Of a DNA stretch of 9,414 bases, positions 1 through 9,414 are shown piece after piece. The DNA comes from Azolla caroliniana (lineage: Eukaryota; Plantae; Polypodiophyta). The DNA lies in assembly GCA_043228905.1 (NCBI GenBank), contig JBHGNT010001362.1, positions 1 through 9,414 of the forward strand, in the 5' to 3' direction. Every line of letters starts with the position of its first letter. Within the stretch, counting starts at the first letter, position 1. The position numbers and the translations under genes were made by a program. A model generated the notes under the pieces. It was given only the letters and a program-made list of their open reading frames with translations. It was not told the DNA's origin and searched no databases.

Positions 1-605
1 ACGTGTAAAAAAAAGGGGCGGGACCACGGGGGTCTTGGACCGAGGAGCGAAAGAGAGAGAGAGAGAGAGAGAGATTCACCGACACGTAGAAGCGAGGAAG
101 AGAGAGATAGAATCGTAACACTTAATTATAATGACAAGAGATTACAATCCCCGACAGTTACAACCGACAAGGCGGTGACGGACCCGACACGGGGCCCTAC
201 TCACGCACACCGACGACAGTCACACGGCTCCAAGAAACAAAAGGGGAAAGGGAGCGACTCTGCTGGAAGCACACGGGCTGTCCACGAAGCAGAGGCAGCG
301 ACCTCCCGACACCCTCAGAGAGCGACGATTCGAGTAGCAAAGAGAGCTCGGCCCCCGTTTTGCAGCAGCGCTTCCCCTTTTCCAACACGCGATACGTTTT
401 CTCTTGTCCTCCTCCCTTTTATTCCATGTCCCCTTGACAGGGATACGCACAATCCCCCTTTTAATCGTGTGCCTCCTAGTATTTTTCACCCACCGATCCC
501 TTTATGAATCAGGTACAAAACATCAAGTCACGCATCCATCCGTGTAAGAGCCGGTTCATGCGCTTTCTTCTCCGATTCCGCCTATGGCCGGTTTTCTTCA
601 CGACA
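1..605 (-). repeat. 3' LTR of element A (about 625 bp; about 20 nt lie before the window start)
   Basis: Position 1 aligns to 6362, 20 nt into the copy that starts TGTCGCG at 6342. It ends ...CACGACA at 605 (TGTCG/CGACA terminal inverted repeat), directly abutting the PPT. The same boundary recurs at 7326. Confidence 0.92.
53..74. repeat. (GA)11 microsatellite within LTR A
   Basis: Perfect GA run. The other LTR copy has an interrupted version 2 nt longer (about 6411-6438). Confidence 0.9.
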
Positions 606-617
606 TCCACCCCCACC
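606..617 (-). promoter_or_regulatory. Polypurine tract of element A (GGTGGGGGTGGA)
   Basis: G-rich tract on the minus strand immediately 5' of the TGTCGTG LTR start; nearly identical tract at 7327-7338. Confidence 0.85.
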
Positions 618-674
618 AAACCGCGCATCCACCGGCATGCGCCAGAGATGGGTAGATACCGAAGAAAACCGGCC

Positions 675-2130
675 TCACTCGTTGCTCTCCGATTCTCCGC
701 CAGGCCCGAATTGATCGTCGTCGTCACTCCCGCTCGCAGGCTCCGGCTCGTCTTTGAACCGCTTTTTGAACGCTTTGATACGCTTCCCGGCGACCGGCAC
801 CACTAACCGTGTCCCGTCGAGTTCCGCGAGGTGGTATGTGCCGTTGTCGTTCGCGCTCGTCACCATGTAGGGCCCGAACCACCTCCTGGCAAACTTTTGC
901 ACCGCGTTGTGCTGATTGTCAAGGCTGTTGTCGTATACCAAGACCCAGTCGCCTTCCTCGATCTTCTTTGGTCGTAACCTATGCATCCGGTTGAACCGGG
1001 TCTTGTTCCGCTCCCTTGCCGCTCGTAGCTTTTCCTTCGTCTGTATCACGTCCTCTGGCCTTCGCTCGAGTTGCCGAATCCGCGCCGCCAGCAACTCCTC
1101 CCGGCTCATTTCGTCCTTCAAATCTACTGCCGCCCACGAAGAAATCGTCCGTTCCACCGGCATGATCGGCTTCTGTCCGTACATCAGCTCTGCCGGCATA
1201 AACCCCTGTTACCGAACTGTGTGTAGTTCGGGCCGCCCATAGTGCGTAAGGAAGGAGCCGCGGCCAATTCCCGACCTGCCCTTCGCATGCACGCACCAAC
1301 GCTTTTACGATAGGCCCGTGCCCACATTCTACCTTTCCGTTCGCCTCCGGATTGTACGCCATAGTGAGGGAGAGTTTGACGCCTAGCCGGTCGAACAACT
1401 CCTCAGCTTCCCGCGCATCCAGCTCTCCTCGGACCGCCACGATCCTCCCGACGCACCCGTACCGACACATTACTTCTTCTATCAGGAACCGGCATACCGC
1501 CGCGGTTGTCTTGCTTTGCGGTGCACGGCCTTCCACCTGGTTCGTTAAGTCCTCCGGGGCAAGCGCCAGGTATCACATCTGTCCTACCCCCATCGACATC
1601 GTCACCAAGTCCATCATCCACTTGAAATGGACCGTAGGCGGGTAGGTCGGGTGTAGCTCGTCCCGGTGTCGCACTACGGAGTGCACCTGATAGCTTTCGC
1701 AAGTCGTTACGAACCGATGCGCGTCCTGGTATAGCCCCGGCCACCAGTACTTCTCCTTCAGCTTCTCGAACGTGGCCCACGTTCCGCGGTGTCCGGCCCA
1801 TGGGCTCTCGTGGAATGCCGCCAGTAGTTTCCCCTGTTCTTCTTTCTTTGCCACTACTCGGAGTGGGATGCCGCTTCTCTTCTTTGGGTGCCTCCATATG
1901 CACCCGTCCCGTAGGAAGAATCGGTACGCCCTCCTCCGTATCCGGCTCGCCACCTCTCTTGCCCATGCTGCGTTCGGCGTCATCATCCGTAGGAACCTCC
2001 TCATTTGGGGCCACTCCCCATCGTACCTGCTTTCGTCAAATTCGTTAAGCGCCGGAGTGTTCCCTTTCCTCGTCGTTACGTTAGCCGACCCGAAAAAGTC
2101 CTCGCCGACTTCTTCTTCATCTGAAACCAT
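675..2130 (-). pseudogene. pol: pol: integrase (H2C2 zinc domain, DDE core, GPY/F motif), disrupted
   Basis: HESPWAGH...YWWPGL...TTCESYQ (last Cys now Tyr); WMMDLV; IVAVRGE (expected catalytic Asp now Val, 1434-1432); YNPEANGKVE; RWFGPYMV (875-867). In-frame TGA at 1573-1575, 1-nt frameshift near 1205. No chromodomain. Confidence 0.93.
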
Positions 2131-4175: not shown

Positions 4176-6297
4176 CCTCGGGTTTCGCTGCCGAGGGCCT
4201 CGCAGTTACGCTCGTGGTTTGGTCGCACCGTTAGGAGCTGGACCGAGTGATGCCCGTCCTGGCTCTTGACTCTCGCATAGGCTGAACCGTTGTCCAGCAC
4301 CTTGGTCTCCATCCGTGCTACCGTGATATATGGCTCTCCTAGTATAACCGGATGCGAGGACGTCTCCTGCACGAAGAAATGTTGGTCGATCTCGACATCG
4401 CCGATTTTCACCCGTACGTTCGGACAGGCCCCATGTAGTTCTTCTGTGGCGCACGTCGCTGCTCGTATCTTCCAGCCATGCTTGGTGTTGATCGGCCATT
4501 TACCCTTCTTGTAGAAATCCATGCACATCAGGTTGATTTCGGATCCATGGTCTACCAACGCCACCACTGGTTCCAGAACGTTGTCGATCCGTACAGGGGT
4601 TTCCGTAATCGTCCTGGCCCAATGCGGCTTCGTGTAGTGGCTTCCCGCCAGCTCGTCTTCCAGGGCTCCGTCTTCCAGGTGCGTGGTCCGCACTTCCACC
4701 GGCTTCTCCAGTTCCGGCTCCGTCGAGAGCCTCTTCCGCTTCACCAAGTCTACGATAGAGTCGTGGAACTCCCTCTTGGCGATTCCCAGCACCTCCCGCA
4801 ACGACAGCTCCGCTTTACTGTCGAGGATTCGCTCTTCAAGGACCTTCCGTAGGTCCGTTGCTCTCTCGATTTCGGTGCTCAACCGAAACCCCGCCTGCTT
4901 CTTCCCATCCAGCATGCCTGGGTTGCCGGCACCGGTCGGTTTCGGTCCGAACCGGGTCTCATACCTCGGGGGCCCAACCCCTCCGGCCTTTCCTGCCCGT
5001 TTGTCCTCCACCAAAACTTCGTAGTTCTGGCAAGCGGCTTCTACGAGGCCCGTTTTCTCTTCGACCGGGTCATCCCAACCAGTGACCTCCTGGACCTGCT
5101 GTTCCGCGCGGTCCGCCTCTTCCTTCCTCAGCCGAAATCCGGAGAGGCCTTCTAGCACTAGCGGCTAGAATCCGGAGTCCTTCACCTTCCAGGTCTCATC
5201 ACCACCGACCCGAATTCCCGCCGACACTGAGTAGTTAACGGCTTCGACGTGCCGTGCCGCGGCCTCTTCCATCAACCTCTTCATTCCGTCACGCCTCGTA
5301 TTCAGTTCTAGGGCTCTCCGGGTCTCGCTCGCGTGCACCCGCCCGTTCCAGAGGTACACCACGTTGGTCCTAAGCGCGTCGGCGAAATCTGCGCAATCCT
5401 TCCGAATGTGACCGATCGTGTCACACCACATGCACCGTTGCCCAGCCGGCGGCCTCCGGTCGCGAGGTTGTTCGCCGTTGTCTCTCCGGGCCTGCGCGAT
5501 CTACAGGTCACACACCATCTGTGTTAGCTCCTCTAGAGCCGCTCCTCCGGATGGGCCTCTGACCACGTCGTTCGATGCCGACCCCAACTCCGTCCAGATT
5601 CGGGTCTCTTCCTTCCTCCCTGCCGGCACTGAAACCGGCTCTTCGAGCCTCCTCCCCGGGACCGGCCCCGACCCCGACGTGCTTCCATCGCTCCAATCGC
5701 GTCGTTTGTCAAAACGGCTGCAGACCCGTTTTACCACGGCCCAGTCCGTCGTGACCCCTTCGTCTGTTTCCAATAGGGGACCCACCTTTTCCCTATCGAG
5801 CGCATCCAACGACTTGACAAACAGCAATGCTCGACTTGTTTCGAGCACCTCCGGTCCAGCGTCGACAGCCGCGTGAACCGTTTTTCGAACTCTTGGAGGA
5901 GCACCGACGTGTTCCTCCCTTTTCCGAGGCTTTCCACCTATGCCATGAAGTCCCGCCTCGATAGCTGGAGCGAGTCATCAAACCCGTACTTCTCGAGCAA
6001 CTGCAGCTCGAACTCCTCCCAAGTCTGGCATCCGGCCAGCATCTCGAGCACCTCCGCATGGATGCCCGACGTCACCACCCGAGGGAATCCGGACAGCCGC
6101 CTGTCCACCGGGATATCCCTCATGATCATTTTGGCCCAGTAAGCCTCCAAATAACTTGTGGCGTCTTTCCCTCCGAAATGGCCTATAGAGCCGACGATCG
6201 ATTCAATGGCCCTGTCGAGGGTACCCGTTCCCTCACGAGCGCTCACCAGCCGGTCGACGGCCACCGCCATTGCCTCTGCTAGCTCCGATCCCCTCAT
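4166..6297 (-). pseudogene. gag: gag-protease ORF, disrupted
   Basis: First ATG at 6297, just after the PBS. Capsid-like TWEEFELQLLEKY, CCHC knuckle, aspartic protease ALVDHGSEINLM (Asp 4552-4550) ...VILGEPY. In-frame TAGs at 5938, 5501 and 5165, and a frameshift near 5850. Confidence 0.9.
5393..5434 (-). other. Gag nucleocapsid zinc knuckle CX2CX4HX4C
   Basis: Translates CMWCDTIGHIRKDC; the first Cys codon (5434-5432) precedes the ORF-track start at 5431. Confidence 0.92.
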
Positions 6298-6319: not shown

Positions 6320-6337
6320 TTCACGTCGGGTTCACCA
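6320..6337 (-). promoter_or_regulatory. Primer binding site complementary to tRNA-Trp 3' end
   Basis: Minus strand TGGTGAACCCGACGTGAA, 4 nt from the LTR end. The plus strand TTCACGTCGGGTTCACCA matches, from recall, the last 18 nt of plant cytosolic tRNA-Trp including CCA. Confidence 0.88.
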
Positions 6338-6341
6338 AAGA

Positions 6342-6640
6342 TGTCGCGTTGTTACGCGTGTACGTGTAAAAAAAAGGGGGCGGGACCACGGGGGTCTTGG
6401 ACCGAGGAGTGAAAGAGAGAGAGAGACAGAGAAAGAGATTCACCAAAACGTAGAAGCGAGGAAGAGAGAGATAGAATCGTAACACTTAATTATAATGACA
6501 AGAGATTACAATCCCCGACAGTTACAACCGACAAGGCGGCGACGGACCCGACACGGGGCCCTACTCACGCACACCGACGACAGTCACACGGCTCCAAGAA
6601 ACAAAAGGGGAAAGGGAGCGACTTTGCTGGAAGCACACGG
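6342..6640 (-). repeat. 5' LTR of element A, truncated (R/U5-side 299 bp only)
   Basis: Starts TGTCGCG next to the PBS; about 97% identical to 1-276; homology stops abruptly at AAGCACACGG (6640). Confidence 0.93.
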
Positions 6641-6858
6641 TGTCGCGTTGTTACGCGCGTGCGTGGAGAAGGGCGGAACCACGGGGGTCTCGGACTAAGG
6701 AGAAGGGGAGAAGGAATAGGACTTCGGAATGGAGCTTAGCACAAGAAGAGAAAGAATGAACAAGAGGAAGACGGAGGCCAAATGCTCAACAAGATATATT
6801 AGAACCGAAAACCGATTACAAAATGGCGGCCGCGTAGGCCGCACCGAACGACTATGAT

Positions 6859-6920
6859 AAACCCGAAACCCTAATCCGGCGAAGAAGAAAAGAAACCCTA
6901 AACGAAACCCTAACCCTAAA
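6859..6920. repeat. Cluster of telobox/telomere-like motifs (AAACCCTA)
   Basis: AAACCCTAA at 6866, 6893 and 6905; AACCCTAAA at 6912; degenerate AAACCCG at 6859. Confidence 0.8.
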
Positions 6921-6985
6921 ACGAAATGGTATACCTCACTCACACTCAAAAATAAGGCAACCCCCACAATGGTGCTCTTCCTCTC

Positions 6986-6993
6986 CTTTTATA
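6986..6993 (-). promoter_or_regulatory. Putative TATA box of LTR B (TATAAAAG)
   Basis: Canonical TATAAAAG on the element's sense strand, mid-LTR. LTR A has AATAAAAG in similar context at 416-423. Confidence 0.6.
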
Positions 6994-7326
6994 GCACAAG
7001 GAGAGAAGACCGTTTACAAAAGGGTGCTACAAAATATCCCCTTTCAATCAATGGGGATATTTCCCTTGATTTTAGGGGAGGTGGGAAGGATGGGTCTTAA
7101 CTCCCATCTTTACACGAACTACTATGTACCTAGCTCTCTCTCTCACGTGGATGTGCGCGCAAAAGCACATCACCTTTACACTTTACAAATCCTAAGGTGC
7201 ATTTCTAGCACCACACTTATCACTATCGACAAATAGAAATACAACATCTTGATGTGCAACGTGGCACATCGCGGGTTTGCTTGCTTCGCTCGGGTTTTCC
7301 GCCTATGGACGAAAATCTTCACGACA

Positions 7327-7338
7327 TCCGCCCCCACC
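7327..7338 (-). promoter_or_regulatory. Polypurine tract of element B (GGTGGGGGCGGA)
   Basis: Abuts LTR B; 11/12 identical to the PPT of A. Confidence 0.85.
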
Positions 7339-7889
7339 TAACCGCACATCCACCGGTATGTGCCAAAAGGGGAACAAAACGCGAGATTTTCGGCCAAGGC
7401 GGCCAACCGAGCCCTTGACAACCTCGTGGGCTTGCCCGGCTTCGTCTTCCACTTCGAGCAAGTCCACCCCGTCCACACGAACCACCGTCGCCTTCCGGCC
7501 CACCATCTTCGTCGAATGGTCTCGAACCGTCGGCCCCATCCGATCCGCCACACTCGACGATGCTCGCCGAGTCGTTGCCTCCACCGGATCCGCCACGTCC
7601 ACCGTGTTTCCTCGAACCACCGTCTACATCCGGACCGCCGTTTCCGATGCCCGCGCTTTCTTCCCCGATCGGTCCTCCCGAACGCCGTTGCCGACCCGGT
7701 TGCTCTTCTTTTGTCCACCTCGCATATCCTCCGGATCTGCCTTTTTCGTGCCACGCACCTCGTCGTGCCGACTCTTCTCGCTCCGCGCTTGCCTTCCGTA
7801 GGCTTTCCCCGTACGTCGGTGTTGTCCTCCGAATGCGTGCTCGTGCTTCGGTCCTTCGATGACCCCATCACGCATTTTTCGCCTTCCCT

Positions 7890-9413
7890 TCACCTTCCGT
7901 GCTCTTTCGCCGTAGAGCATATCATCATTCCCATACTCGTTGCTTGGCCCTCATGCGGCCGTATTGCACGTTTCGTATCCCGCTCCTTTTCGCGTACCCC
8001 TTTGGAAAGGTACCTTCCTTTCCCGACCTCCGTGTCGGGGCCCTTCGTGGCTCTCATCATCGCTTCATCTCGACCCGCGCCTTCTTTCGTCCCGCGCTTG
8101 CCTCTCGAAGGCTTGACCCGACTGTCGTCGTCGGTCGCTCGTTGTCGCCCGTTCGCCGTATGCATGCTCGTCTCTTGGCCCTCCACCGGCCGTATTGCAT
8201 GTGTCTCGTGTCGCGCTTCCACCGTAGACCCGTCCCCCGCATCGGTCTCCAACTCCTCGCCGCCACCCGCCATCTCCTCGGTCTTCCGTTGATCCGCAAC
8301 CGCCGAAGTGTTAAGCATAGGTGCGGAGGGTTCCTTCCGCTCTCGGTCTCCCACCGAGTCCTTGTCCTTGCGCCCGCTTGGCCCCCTTCTCGCGCTCACC
8401 GGCTCCCACCGTGTGTTGCGACTCGTACACCTCGGCCTCCAATCGTGCCGCGTCGCCTCCCGTTCGGGTCGGATTACCGACCGGCTCGCCTTTCGGTTGG
8501 GTCGGTTCCCGACTCGCTCCTCGATACCGCTCCGATCCTCTCCGTCGGACTCTCCGTATACGCCCATTCCGGGCCCCGTATCCCCTTCTTCGCATGTGCT
8601 CTCTCCGGGCCACGCCTCCTCACGGCCACCGCCCTTCTCTACGGTCTTATGTTGGCTTCCGAGTGCAACCGCCGTAGTCTCCGGAGTGGGTATGGAGGGT
8701 CTCGTTTGTTTCCGTTTTTCCCCCGAACCATGGTCGTCGTGCCCGGTTAGCCTCCATCTCGCGCTTACCGGCTCCCATCGTAACCGTAACCGTAACCGTA
8801 ACCGGCCAATCGGTCTCGCTGGCTTCCTTCGGTTTGGGCCCGGTTCGCCGGCCCTTACTCTCTTCTTCTTCCGTGCCGTATTCCGGTCGGGTCGGTTCCC
8901 GACTCTCTCCTCGTTTTCGCTCCGGCCCTCTCCGTCGGACCCACCGTATACGCCCATTCCGGGCCCCGCATACTCGTCTTCGTATGCGCTCTCTCCGGGC
9001 CTCACCTCCTCACGGTCACCGCCCATCTCTCCGGTCTCACGTTGGCATTCGAGCACAACCGCCGAAGTCTCCGGCCCCGGTGTCAAGGGGTCTTGCCTCC
9101 GTCCGCTCCAATCTTCCTTCTCGTTTCCGTTGCCCGCCTTGCCGCCGTCACCTCCCGTCGCACTAAGCCTCATGCCGGCACTCGGGCCGGCCATTAGAGC
9201 CTCTAGGATTGGTGTGGGTAAGGACCCGGTACCGCTGCTTGTTGTCTCCGTAGCCGCTTTCGTTCGGACGTCGTTGTCCGCGGCTCCCCCATCTCCGATT
9301 CCGTAAGCCTCTAGTATGCTTGCCACCACCTCTTCCTCGCCATTCTCCGCGTCATTTTGTTTGCCCGCCTTGCCGCCGCCACCGCCCGTCGTTCTAGGTC
9401 TCGTGCCGGCACT
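7890..9413 (-). CDS. Uncharacterised G/E/R-rich, repeat-containing ORF in the 3' internal region of element B (5'-open, at least 507 aa)
   Basis: The frame is open from the window edge (SAGTRPRTTGGGGGKAGK...) to TGA 7892-7890, and continues in frame to TAG 7340-7338. No recognisable domain; coding status uncertain. Confidence 0.4.
   Translation of the reverse strand, partial: SAGTRPRTTGGGGGKAGKQNDAENGEEEVVASILEAYGIGDGGAADNDVRTKAATETTSSGTGSLPTPILEALMAGPSAGMRLSATGGDGGKAGNGNEKEDWSGRRQDPLTPGPETSAVVLECQRETGEMGGDREEVRPGESAYEDEYAGPGMGVYGGSDGEGRSENEERVGNRPDRNTARKKKRVRAGEPGPNRRKPARPIGRLRLRLRLRWEPVSARWRLTGHDDHGSGEKRKQTRPSIPTPETTAVALGSQHKTVEKGGGREEAWPGESTCEEGDTGPGMGVYGESDGEDRSGIEERVGNRPNRKASRSVIRPEREATRHDWRPRCTSRNTRWEPVSARRGPSGRKDKDSVGDRERKEPSAPMLNTSAVADQRKTEEMAGGGEELETDAGDGSTVEARHETHAIRPVEGQETSMHTANGRQRATDDDSRVKPSRGKRGTKEGAGRDEAMMRATKGPDTEVGKGRYLSKGVREKERDTKRAIRPHEGQATSMGMMICSTAKEHGR
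7936..8210. repeat. Short direct repeat pair, offset 231 bp
   Basis: CTTGGCCCTC..CGGCCGTATTGCA at 7943 and 8174 (AIRPxEGQxTSM twice in the minus ORF). Confidence 0.8.
8250..9075. repeat. Degenerate tandem repeat, period 369-390 bp
   Basis: CAACCGCCG(A/T)AGT at 8297, 8666 and 9056. Segments 8491-8680 and 8881-9070 align gap-free with 28 mismatches in 190 nt (hand count). Confidence 0.88.
8779..8804. repeat. (CGTAAC)4 hexamer tandem repeat
   Basis: Four perfect copies plus CG; reads RLRLRLRLR in the minus ORF. Confidence 0.9.
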
Positions 9414-9414
9414 C
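9130..9414. repeat. Direct repeat pair, offset 231 bp, running off the window end
   Basis: 9130-9183 TTGCCCGCCTTGCCGCCG...TGCCGGCACTC recurs at 9361-9414. Confidence 0.85.

What the first reader, a model, noticed from the sequence alone, without database searches (positions are those of the whole stretch)
586..674. Covariation-supported hairpin enclosing the PPT/U3 junction, conserved in both elements
Seen in A: a perfect 14-bp inverted repeat, GGCCGGTTTTCTTC (586-599, inside the LTR) and GAAGAAAACCGGCC (661-674, just after the integrase stop). On the sense RNA a further G-U-rich helix (660-650 with 602-612) covers the PPT/LTR boundary, and there is an inner stem GCGCAT (623-628)/ATGCGC (637-642). 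Seen in B: the same architecture with different sequence. The outer arms are 7299-7322 and 7381-7402; the LTR arm changes GAAAACCG to GATTTTCG and its partner changes CGGTTTTC to CGAAAATC in step. The inner stem becomes GCACAT (7344-7349)/ATGTGC (7358-7363), a G-C to A-U swap. Inference: paired changes in two stems, between families whose LTR middles no longer align, point to a selected structure. It can only form at the 3' LTR and may control plus-strand priming, RNase H cleavage, strand transfer or packaging. I do not know of a description of it for this lineage.
Basis: partly seen in the sequence, partly recalled or inferred. Interest (0 to 1): 0.8.

Follow-up and report, generated by a model that had tools for sequence, protein, structure and literature searches.

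The report
Conserved fold around retrotransposon priming site
A group of plant Gypsy retrotransposons keeps a fold-back sequence around the site that starts second-strand DNA synthesis, with arms that change in step between families and a nearly fixed small hairpin just upstream, which likely helps set that start site; a simpler version is already described in Copia elements and HIV.

Summary
Both elements carry the stems at the stated coordinates. They are Phygy-like Ty3/Gypsy elements; B has no integrase near its PPT. Across 55-57 representatives drawn from 80 related loci, the feature splits into three parts. (1) An inner hairpin with a GGWG loop is nearly universal (95% paired) and ends 17-18 nt above the PPT/U3 junction in 51 of 55. 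(2) The outer stem covaries: 11 double changes on 8 branches, against a null mean of 1.2. It is confined to one clade; the sister clade folds the U3 start into a local hairpin instead. (3) The helix over the PPT is mostly base composition. Which strand folds (RNA or minus-strand cDNA) is unresolved, and in half of the near-clade tests the outer stem did not dominate the RNA ensemble. An inverted repeat around the PPT/3'LTR junction is already published for Sireviruses, other Copia elements and HIV; this scan also noted a U3-start hairpin in microsporidian Gypsy LTRs (e1-7178012). What is new is the Gypsy instance with covariation, the inner hairpin and the interchangeable U3 partner. Most likely role: a positioning signal for plus-strand priming (inferred, untested). 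New variant of a known kind.

The parts
586..599 (-). A outer stem, U3 arm (LTR positions +7 to +20)
   Evidence: I8
600..605 (-). A: first six bases of the 3' LTR; PPT/U3 junction between 606 and 605
   Evidence: junction motif found in 72 of 80 related loci
606..622 (-). A polypurine tract (17 nt, G-rich)
   Evidence: position next to the LTR and conservation; priming function inferred
623..642 (-). A inner hairpin: 6-bp stem and 8-nt loop containing CC and GGWG (GGWG at 633-630)
647..660 (-). A anti-PPT strand (middle helix; variable register among relatives, weak beyond composition)
661..674 (-). A outer stem, upstream arm, directly after the integrase stop
678..1208 (-). A integrase C-terminal reading frame, used as the anchor to collect relatives
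5393..5434 (-). A Gag CX2CX4HX4C zinc knuckle (candidate binder of the GGWG loop; inferred)
   Evidence: read from the translation; no Pfam hit for this frame
6321..6337 (-). A primer-binding site; same motif in 19 of 25 loci of 4.5 kb or more; assignment to tRNA-Trp is recalled
6637..6640 (+). ACGG next to B's LTR end, inside A's 5' LTR; fits an NCGN target site (only one side lies in the window)
7299..7322 (-). B outer stem, U3 arm (LTR starts at 7326)
7327..7343 (-). B polypurine tract
7344..7363 (-). B inner hairpin (A-U version)
7367..7380 (-). B anti-PPT strand (U-G-rich pairing)
7381..7402 (-). B outer stem, upstream arm, in non-integrase sequence; identical in high-depth contigs of three runs

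Best explanation
This is a conserved fold-back element at the PPT/U3 junction of Phygy-like Gypsy retrotransposons, made of a near-invariant hairpin 17-18 nt above the junction and a covarying stem over the start of U3, and it likely acts on the genomic RNA as a positioning signal that would slow reverse transcriptase so that RNase H cuts out the plus-strand primer correctly. Shown: the stems, their fixed position and the paired changes. Inferred: folding in vivo, the RNA as the folding strand, pausing of reverse transcriptase, and any effect on cleavage. Likely order of events: after the first strand transfer, the enzyme meets the U3 stem, unwinds through the PPT and stalls at the base of the inner hairpin with the junction just behind it. 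The GGWG loop may recruit the Gag zinc knuckle as a chaperone. The U3 stem can be supplied by an upstream arm (A's clade) or by a local hairpin (sister clade).
For: Inner hairpin: 94.9% of cells paired in 39 near-clade rows and 95.3% in 16 far-clade rows; 5 double changes on the tree in 50 elements; spacing to the junction 17-18 nt in 51 of 55, while columns upstream of it fall to 0.3-0.7 conservation. Outer stem: cognate duplex -20.5 versus non-cognate -16.3 kcal/mol, n=41, p=1e-4; 11 double Watson-Crick changes in 35 elements against a column-permutation mean of 1.2 and maximum of 4, spread over 8 branches. Two of three further junctions not picked by integrase similarity ranked their own U3 first of 72. 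B keeps a cognate arm in non-integrase sequence, identical in high-depth contigs of three runs. The far clade has a cognate local U3 hairpin (p=2e-4) and the near clade does not (p=0.90). The same role was proposed for the Sirevirus repeat (PMC2829016) and the HIV PPT helix (PMC4439019).
Against: No functional data. Ty3 reverse transcriptase has about 13 bp between its active sites (PMC5371799), so a stall at -18 would not put RNase H on the junction unless this enzyme measures longer (17-18 bp for HIV-1 is recalled). PMC3616985 argues that RNA structure is unlikely to affect a primer that works as an RNA/DNA hybrid, and that PPT pairing may be a by-product of G content; here PPT opening energy beat shuffled flanks in only 25 of 39 and 9 of 16. 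Strand evidence leans the other way: the sense z-score was better in only 9 of 41, and outer-stem mismatches are 45 A-C versus 25 G-U on the sense strand. In a 250-nt context the outer stem had RNA pairing probability of 0.6 or more in 8 of 18 near-clade elements and under 0.25 in 9. RNAalifold on the near-clade alignment recovered neither stem. Registers for one search were chosen by best pairing, and the permutations ignore relatedness. 78 of the 80 loci come from one series of assemblies.
Confidence: 0.4

Rival explanations
1. The outer stem is selected on the minus-strand cDNA, not the RNA. After RNase H clears the template, the cDNA would fold back with the PPT primer held in the loop, so plus-strand synthesis would pause after about six bases and primer removal or re-priming would be timed by that pause.
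For: Antisense z-scores are better in 32 of 41 near-clade elements. With DNA parameters the U3 arm beats shuffled flanks in 34 of 39 (mean z 2.7, versus 1.8 for RNA). Inherited non-Watson-Crick states are mostly A-C on the sense strand, that is G-T on the minus strand: 17 versus 3 internal-branch events, while tips are even at 19 versus 17. In L005, L033 and L047 the outer stem is more probable in minus DNA than in RNA.
Against: Absolute stability is much lower in DNA. Several internal events are root-level artefacts of one out-of-register row, or C residues that can pair with the PPT instead; the independent origins number only a handful, which is not significant. The middle helices of A and B need sense G-U pairs. 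L042 and L002 favour the RNA.
Confidence: 0.2
2. The outer stem is a mutational by-product. Fold-back template switching during reverse transcription would repeatedly copy the U3 start into the upstream arm, giving covariation without selection, while the inner motif is conserved as a sequence (for example a protein site).
For: Single-sided changes that restore pairing fall more often on the upstream arm than on U3 (18 versus 11). Three of the 8 branches with double changes carry two each, adjacent on two of them. The stem is absent from the far clade. Elements with mismatched arms exist (L034, L036, L044). Templated correction of imperfect palindromes is established for DNA replication (recalled; search listing only).
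Against: Family-wide mismatches persist uncorrected (C-A at +8 in 14 of 35, C-T at +18 in 13 of 35). Changes that break pairing are also biased to the upstream arm (38 versus 23), so that arm is simply more variable. The far clade has a different covarying U3 hairpin. The inner motif changes on both arms together, which a plain binding site does not require.
Confidence: 0.18
3. The element is a Gag-binding or RNA-packaging signal. The inner hairpin would present a GGAG/GGUG loop to the Gag zinc knuckle (or a CCGG kissing loop), and the outer stem would mark RNAs that contain the internal-domain/3'LTR junction.
For: The second and fourth loop bases are G in 52 of 55 each, while the third is split 29 A / 26 T. 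This is the pattern that HIV-1 NC reads in the GGAG tetraloop (PMC7599994). A's Gag has a CCHC knuckle. The non-autonomous B keeps the whole element.
Against: Known packaging hairpins lie in the 5' leader, and changing HIV's GGAG loop did not impair packaging (PMC7599994). Packaging alone does not explain the fixed 17-18 nt spacing. The loop can also be drawn as a triloop. The CCGG palindrome is broken (CCAG) in whole families such as L020/L024/L030, against a kissing loop.
Confidence: 0.17
4. It is chance plus base composition: a G-rich PPT next to a pyrimidine-rich tract pairs by itself, and the rest is shared ancestry.
For: This fits the middle helix: cognate versus swapped p=0.26 (far) and 0.04 (near), with differences of 0.3-0.4 kcal/mol; mean z 0.6.
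Against: It does not fit the outer stem or the inner hairpin.
Confidence: 0.05

Closest known systems
[quoted passage not shown] 2010, PMC2829016; noted again in PMC3601003)
   Same: One arm upstream of the PPT and one inside U3, enclosing the PPT and attachment site; forms only at the 3' junction; the left arm can lie next to or in pol; proposed to help RNase H form the primer.
   Different: Here the host elements are Ty3/Gypsy. The left arm does not border the PPT but ends about 39 nt above it, with a second hairpin between. The right arm starts at +7 rather than about 18-28 nt in. The PPT is predicted partly paired rather than exposed. The arms vary in sequence and covary, and a sister clade uses a local U3 hairpin instead.
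Conserved PPT and cPPT helices of HIV-1 and SIV RNA (PMC4439019, PMC3616985)
   Same: [quoted passage not shown]
   Different: Those models rest on SHAPE data, have no comparable invariant upstream hairpin in the passages I read, and one paper reads the pairing as a by-product of G content.
HIV-1 Psi (SL3) GGAG tetraloop bound by nucleocapsid (PMC7599994)
   Same: A stem-loop that can present G-G-A/U-G with the second and fourth G conserved; the element encodes a CCHC knuckle.
   Different: It lies at the 3' end next to the PPT, not in the 5' leader; one knuckle was seen rather than two; binding is untested.
Phygy lineage of plant non-chromovirus Ty3/Gypsy elements (REXdb, PMC6317226)
   Same: RT-RH-INT order with no chromodomain hit, PBS of the Trp type (recalled), NCGN-type target.
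   Different: A is about 7.0 kb, below the listed 7.7-10.0 kb range; no tree with REXdb references was possible; no PPT structure is described in the passages read.

Membership tests
Sirevirus/Copia PPT-flanking inverted repeat | Left arm upstream of the PPT, right arm inside the 3' LTR | tested here: met
   A and B; 36 of 39 near-clade representatives score 18 or more for an upstream-U3 register; absent in the far clade
Sirevirus/Copia PPT-flanking inverted repeat | Left arm borders the PPT directly | tested here: not met
   The partner of U3 +7 lies at -54 to -61 in most elements; the inner hairpin and anti-PPT strand intervene
Sirevirus/Copia PPT-flanking inverted repeat | Right arm starts about 18-28 nt inside the LTR, with the PPT exposed in the loop | tested here: not met
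   The arm starts at about +7; predicted PPT pairing is 0.64 in A and 0.78 in B; prediction only
Sirevirus/Copia PPT-flanking inverted repeat | Host element is Ty1/copia | tested here: not met
   RT, RNase H, then integrase order
Sirevirus/Copia PPT-flanking inverted repeat | Role in RNase H primer formation (proposed, not shown, in the source paper) | not testable with these tools
   Needs an in vitro cleavage assay
Phygy (REXdb) | Ty3/Gypsy domain order without chromodomain or extra RNase H | tested here: met
   Pfam RVT_1, RT_RNaseH, Integrase_H2C2 in that order; no chromodomain hit in the integrase C-terminal frame
Phygy (REXdb) | PBS for tRNA-Trp (81% of members) | tested here: inconclusive
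   One conserved PBS motif in A and 19 of 25 long loci; its identity as Trp is recalled, and the literature search did not confirm it
Phygy (REXdb) | 4-bp NCGN target-site duplication | tested here: inconclusive
   ACGG beside B's LTR end fits; the other end is outside the window
Phygy (REXdb) | Length 7.7-10.0 kb | tested here: not met
   A is about 7.0 kb (5.7 kb internal plus two LTRs of about 0.63 kb)
Phygy (REXdb) | Placement with Phygy references in an RT-RH-INT tree | not testable with these tools
   No REXdb sequences available; nearest named RT relatives are Riccia (up to 65% identity) and Adiantum
Retroviral Psi-type NC-binding hairpin | G at loop positions 2 and 4 | tested here: met
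   52 of 55 at each position, if the loop is drawn as a tetraloop
Retroviral Psi-type NC-binding hairpin | Located in the 5' leader | tested here: not met
   Only two matches in the window, both next to a PPT
Retroviral Psi-type NC-binding hairpin | Specific binding by the zinc knuckle | not testable with these tools
   Needs a binding assay

The most novel reading that the evidence does not exclude
A two-part priming device not described before in LTR retrotransposons: a Gag-knuckle docking hairpin (GGWG loop) held one enzyme footprint above the PPT/U3 junction, plus an interchangeable clamp on the first 20 bases of U3 that works on the minus-strand cDNA, so that nucleocapsid and template structure together fix and time plus-strand initiation.
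Probability: 0.15. Interest if true: 0.75.

Novelty: new variant of a known kind. Interest (0 to 1): 0.5.

Why it matters
How the plus-strand primer is picked out so precisely is still open. Structure near the PPT has been proposed for Copia elements and HIV, and dismissed as a composition by-product by others. [quoted passage not shown] This lineage gives covariation evidence in Ty3/Gypsy, separates a selected part (inner hairpin, U3 stem) from a compositional part (PPT helix), and supplies natural pairs of compensatory variants and two alternative architectures for direct in vitro tests. The 20-nt hairpin is also a usable marker for autonomous and non-autonomous members.

Tried and rejected
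No genome is held for the window, so copies in the same assembly could not be aligned. Viral contigs gave no integrase relative. Its five matches to the hairpin motif lack a PPT and integrase and were set aside as chance. Rfam had no match at E up to 1 in 450-800. No RNA holder was listed; this is no evidence on expression. Contigs laid on A mix many families and give no linkage between arms, so they were not used for covariation. RNAalifold on the near clade chose an alternative pairing of the inner 5' arm with the junction; I rank it second because the stem position that swaps G-C/A-U covaries with the inner partner and the junction varies in the far clade. One search used a structure string one column out of register; it was redone. 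A kissing-loop (CCGG) role was lowered because whole families carry CCAG. Long-range pairing of the loop elsewhere in the window found no complement for two motifs. A G-quadruplex reading was noted (four to six GG runs) but not tested. A literature search to confirm the tRNA identity of the PBS returned unrelated papers in the 10 of 21 listed. Rows dropped: 6 of 80 loci had no junction (4 end too early, 2 continue in unrelated sequence); 4 had under 32 nt of U3; L009 and L060 were dropped after because their U3 is replaced; B is not in the tree; L015, L025, L034 and L044 were left out of the outer-stem tree count (different or no register), and five rows were left out of the inner-stem count.

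Full report
What the window is. It holds two LTR elements on the minus strand. A runs from its 3' LTR (window start to 605) through a broken gag-pol to a 299-nt piece of its 5' LTR (6342-6640), 96.8% identical to the 3' copy. Pfam finds reverse transcriptase, RNase H and the integrase zinc domain in Ty3/Gypsy order, plus a sub-threshold DUF4100 match. B's 3' LTR (6641-7326) interrupts A's 5' LTR next to ACGG, and B's internal sequence in the window has no integrase C-terminus. The nearest named RT relatives are from Riccia and Adiantum; closer ones are unnamed assemblies. REXdb lists Phygy with a tRNA-Trp PBS in 81% and 4-bp NCGN target duplications (PMC6317226, supplement file 3). A fits this in part; the Trp assignment is recalled and A is shorter than the listed range. 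The host was not identified.

The observation. The sense strand folds at z -4.4 and -5.1 with none of 200 shuffles as stable, and the antisense strand is also significant. In a 250-nt context the outer stem has pairing probability 0.99 in A and 0.86 in B.

Relatives. The junction motif was found in 72 of 80 and two more were placed by hand. After dropping four with too little U3, 70 loci plus A and B remained, reduced to 57 representatives at 90% identity. A tree of the integrase coding region, which excludes the hairpin, separates a near clade (39 rows) from a far clade (16 rows) at 100/99 support.

Inner hairpin. It is the constant part: 94.9% of cells paired in the near clade and 95.3% in the far clade, with 1 of 500 shuffles reaching the latter. 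One position swaps G-C (18 rows) and A-U (15 rows) in the near clade, and five double changes map on the tree. It ends 17 nt (34 cases) or 18 nt (17 cases) above the junction in 51 of 55. The loop keeps G at the second and fourth positions of GGWG in 52 of 55 each, while the third is 29 A and 26 T. The motif occurs twice in the window, once per PPT, with none in 200 shuffles.

Outer stem. In the near clade each upstream arm pairs best with its own type of U3: -20.5 versus -16.3 kcal/mol, p=1e-4, n=41. About six arm sequences can be seen by eye. On the tree, 11 double Watson-Crick changes occur in 35 elements, against 0-4 for slid registers and a mean of 1.2 (maximum 4) for 200 column permutations; they fall on 8 branches. 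Of three extra junctions found in the loci, two ranked their own U3 first of 72, including a relative of B with a new arm sequence, and one failed. B's arm is identical in high-depth contigs of three runs. In the far clade the upstream arm is absent (p=0.21); instead the first 30 nt of U3 form a cognate local hairpin (p=2e-4), which the near clade lacks (p=0.90). So the start of U3 tends to be paired in both clades, by different partners.

Results against. The permutation tests ignore relatedness and the registers were chosen by best pairing. RNAalifold on the near-clade alignment recovered neither stem, partly because several families are out of register in that alignment. In 9 of 18 near-clade elements the outer stem had RNA probability under 0.25, and in four of these the PPT pairs with U3 at probability above 0.5 instead. 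Only 5 of 16 far-clade U3 hairpins reach z below -2 individually. L034, L036 and L044 carry mismatched arms. The helix over the PPT is barely above composition: real opening energy exceeded shuffled flanks in 25 of 39 and 9 of 16, and cognate pairing beat swapped pairing by 0.3-0.6 kcal/mol.

Which strand. Raw energies favour it and the middle helices of A and B need G-U pairs. But z-scores favour the antisense strand in 32 of 41, outer-stem mismatches are 45 A-C versus 25 G-U, and inherited mismatches lean the same way while tip changes are even. The independent origins are too few to decide, so a minus-strand cDNA structure remains a live rival.

Mechanism. Fixed position relative to the scissile junction, in both clades and in a non-autonomous element, points to reverse transcription rather than to translation or transcription. 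I commit to a positioning signal for plus-strand priming on the RNA (0.40), with a cDNA fold-back version (0.20), a template-switching by-product (0.18), a Gag or packaging signal (0.17) and chance (0.05) as rivals. That the inner hairpin and U3 stem are real, maintained structures is much more secure than any one mechanism (about 0.85, my estimate). The 17-18 nt spacing matches the recalled HIV-1 active-site distance but not the 13 bp or so reported for Ty3 (PMC5371799), so the ruler argument is weak.

Prior knowledge. [quoted passage not shown] PMC3601003 (passages) adds HIV and calls for a systematic search. For HIV and SIV I read passages and one section of PMC4439019 and passages of PMC3616985. 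Passages only were read of PMC7599994, PMC5371799, PMC3185511, PMC2864245, PMC6911290, PMC5445492, PMC3902901 and bioRxiv 10.1101/2022.12.06.519325; of PMC6317226, passages and two supplement rows. Searches listed no description of this structure in Phygy-like or other Gypsy elements; the library lacks most subscription journals, and I did not see the supplements of PMC2829016.

Verdict. Real feature, a new variant of a known kind. The outer stem works like the Sirevirus repeat but fails its defining geometry; the invariant inner hairpin and the interchangeable U3 partner are the new parts. Interest 0.5.

Noticed in passing
window 6641-9414: Element B looks non-autonomous: its 3' internal region has a 507-aa low-complexity open frame (7890-9413, no Pfam hit) built from 231- and 390-nt repeats, and a 45-nt-period repeat at 7478-7641. 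High-depth, near-identical contigs suggest a recently amplified family; a relative lies in L028 at about 8300-11200.
   Followed up: partly
window 6342-6360: A short perfect hairpin (5-bp arms, 4-nt loop) sits at the U5 end just before the PBS of A; several loci show self-complementary U5 ends too. Possibly a U5-IR-like stem; not tested against controls.
   Followed up: no
window 626-633 and 604-611: The 3' side of the inner hairpin repeats the PPT/U3 junction sequence, so the 5' arm could pair with either; RNAalifold prefers the junction pairing in the near clade. A two-state switch is not excluded.
   Followed up: partly
L010, L014, L033, L047 junctions: In this subclade a change in the PPT (-4) and one in U3 (+18) create a local PPT-U3 helix that outcompetes the outer stem in the predicted RNA ensemble: a third architecture.
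   Followed up: partly
L042, L036, L044, L034 junctions: L042 groups with the L012 family by integrase but carries the whole L076-type 3' module (both arms together); L036, L044 and L034 carry arms that do not match their U3. Recombinants or assembly chimeras.
   Followed up: no
L015 and L025 junctions: Here the U3 arm can pair with the stretch directly above the inner hairpin, and the two families differ by two apparently compensatory changes in that helix (read; not counted).
   Followed up: partly
window 6865-6917: Several AAACCCTA-type motifs in B's LTR (plant telo-box-like; label recalled).
   Followed up: no
window 604-634: Six GG runs across the loop, inner stem and PPT could form a two-tier G-quadruplex competing with the hairpin.
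   Followed up: no
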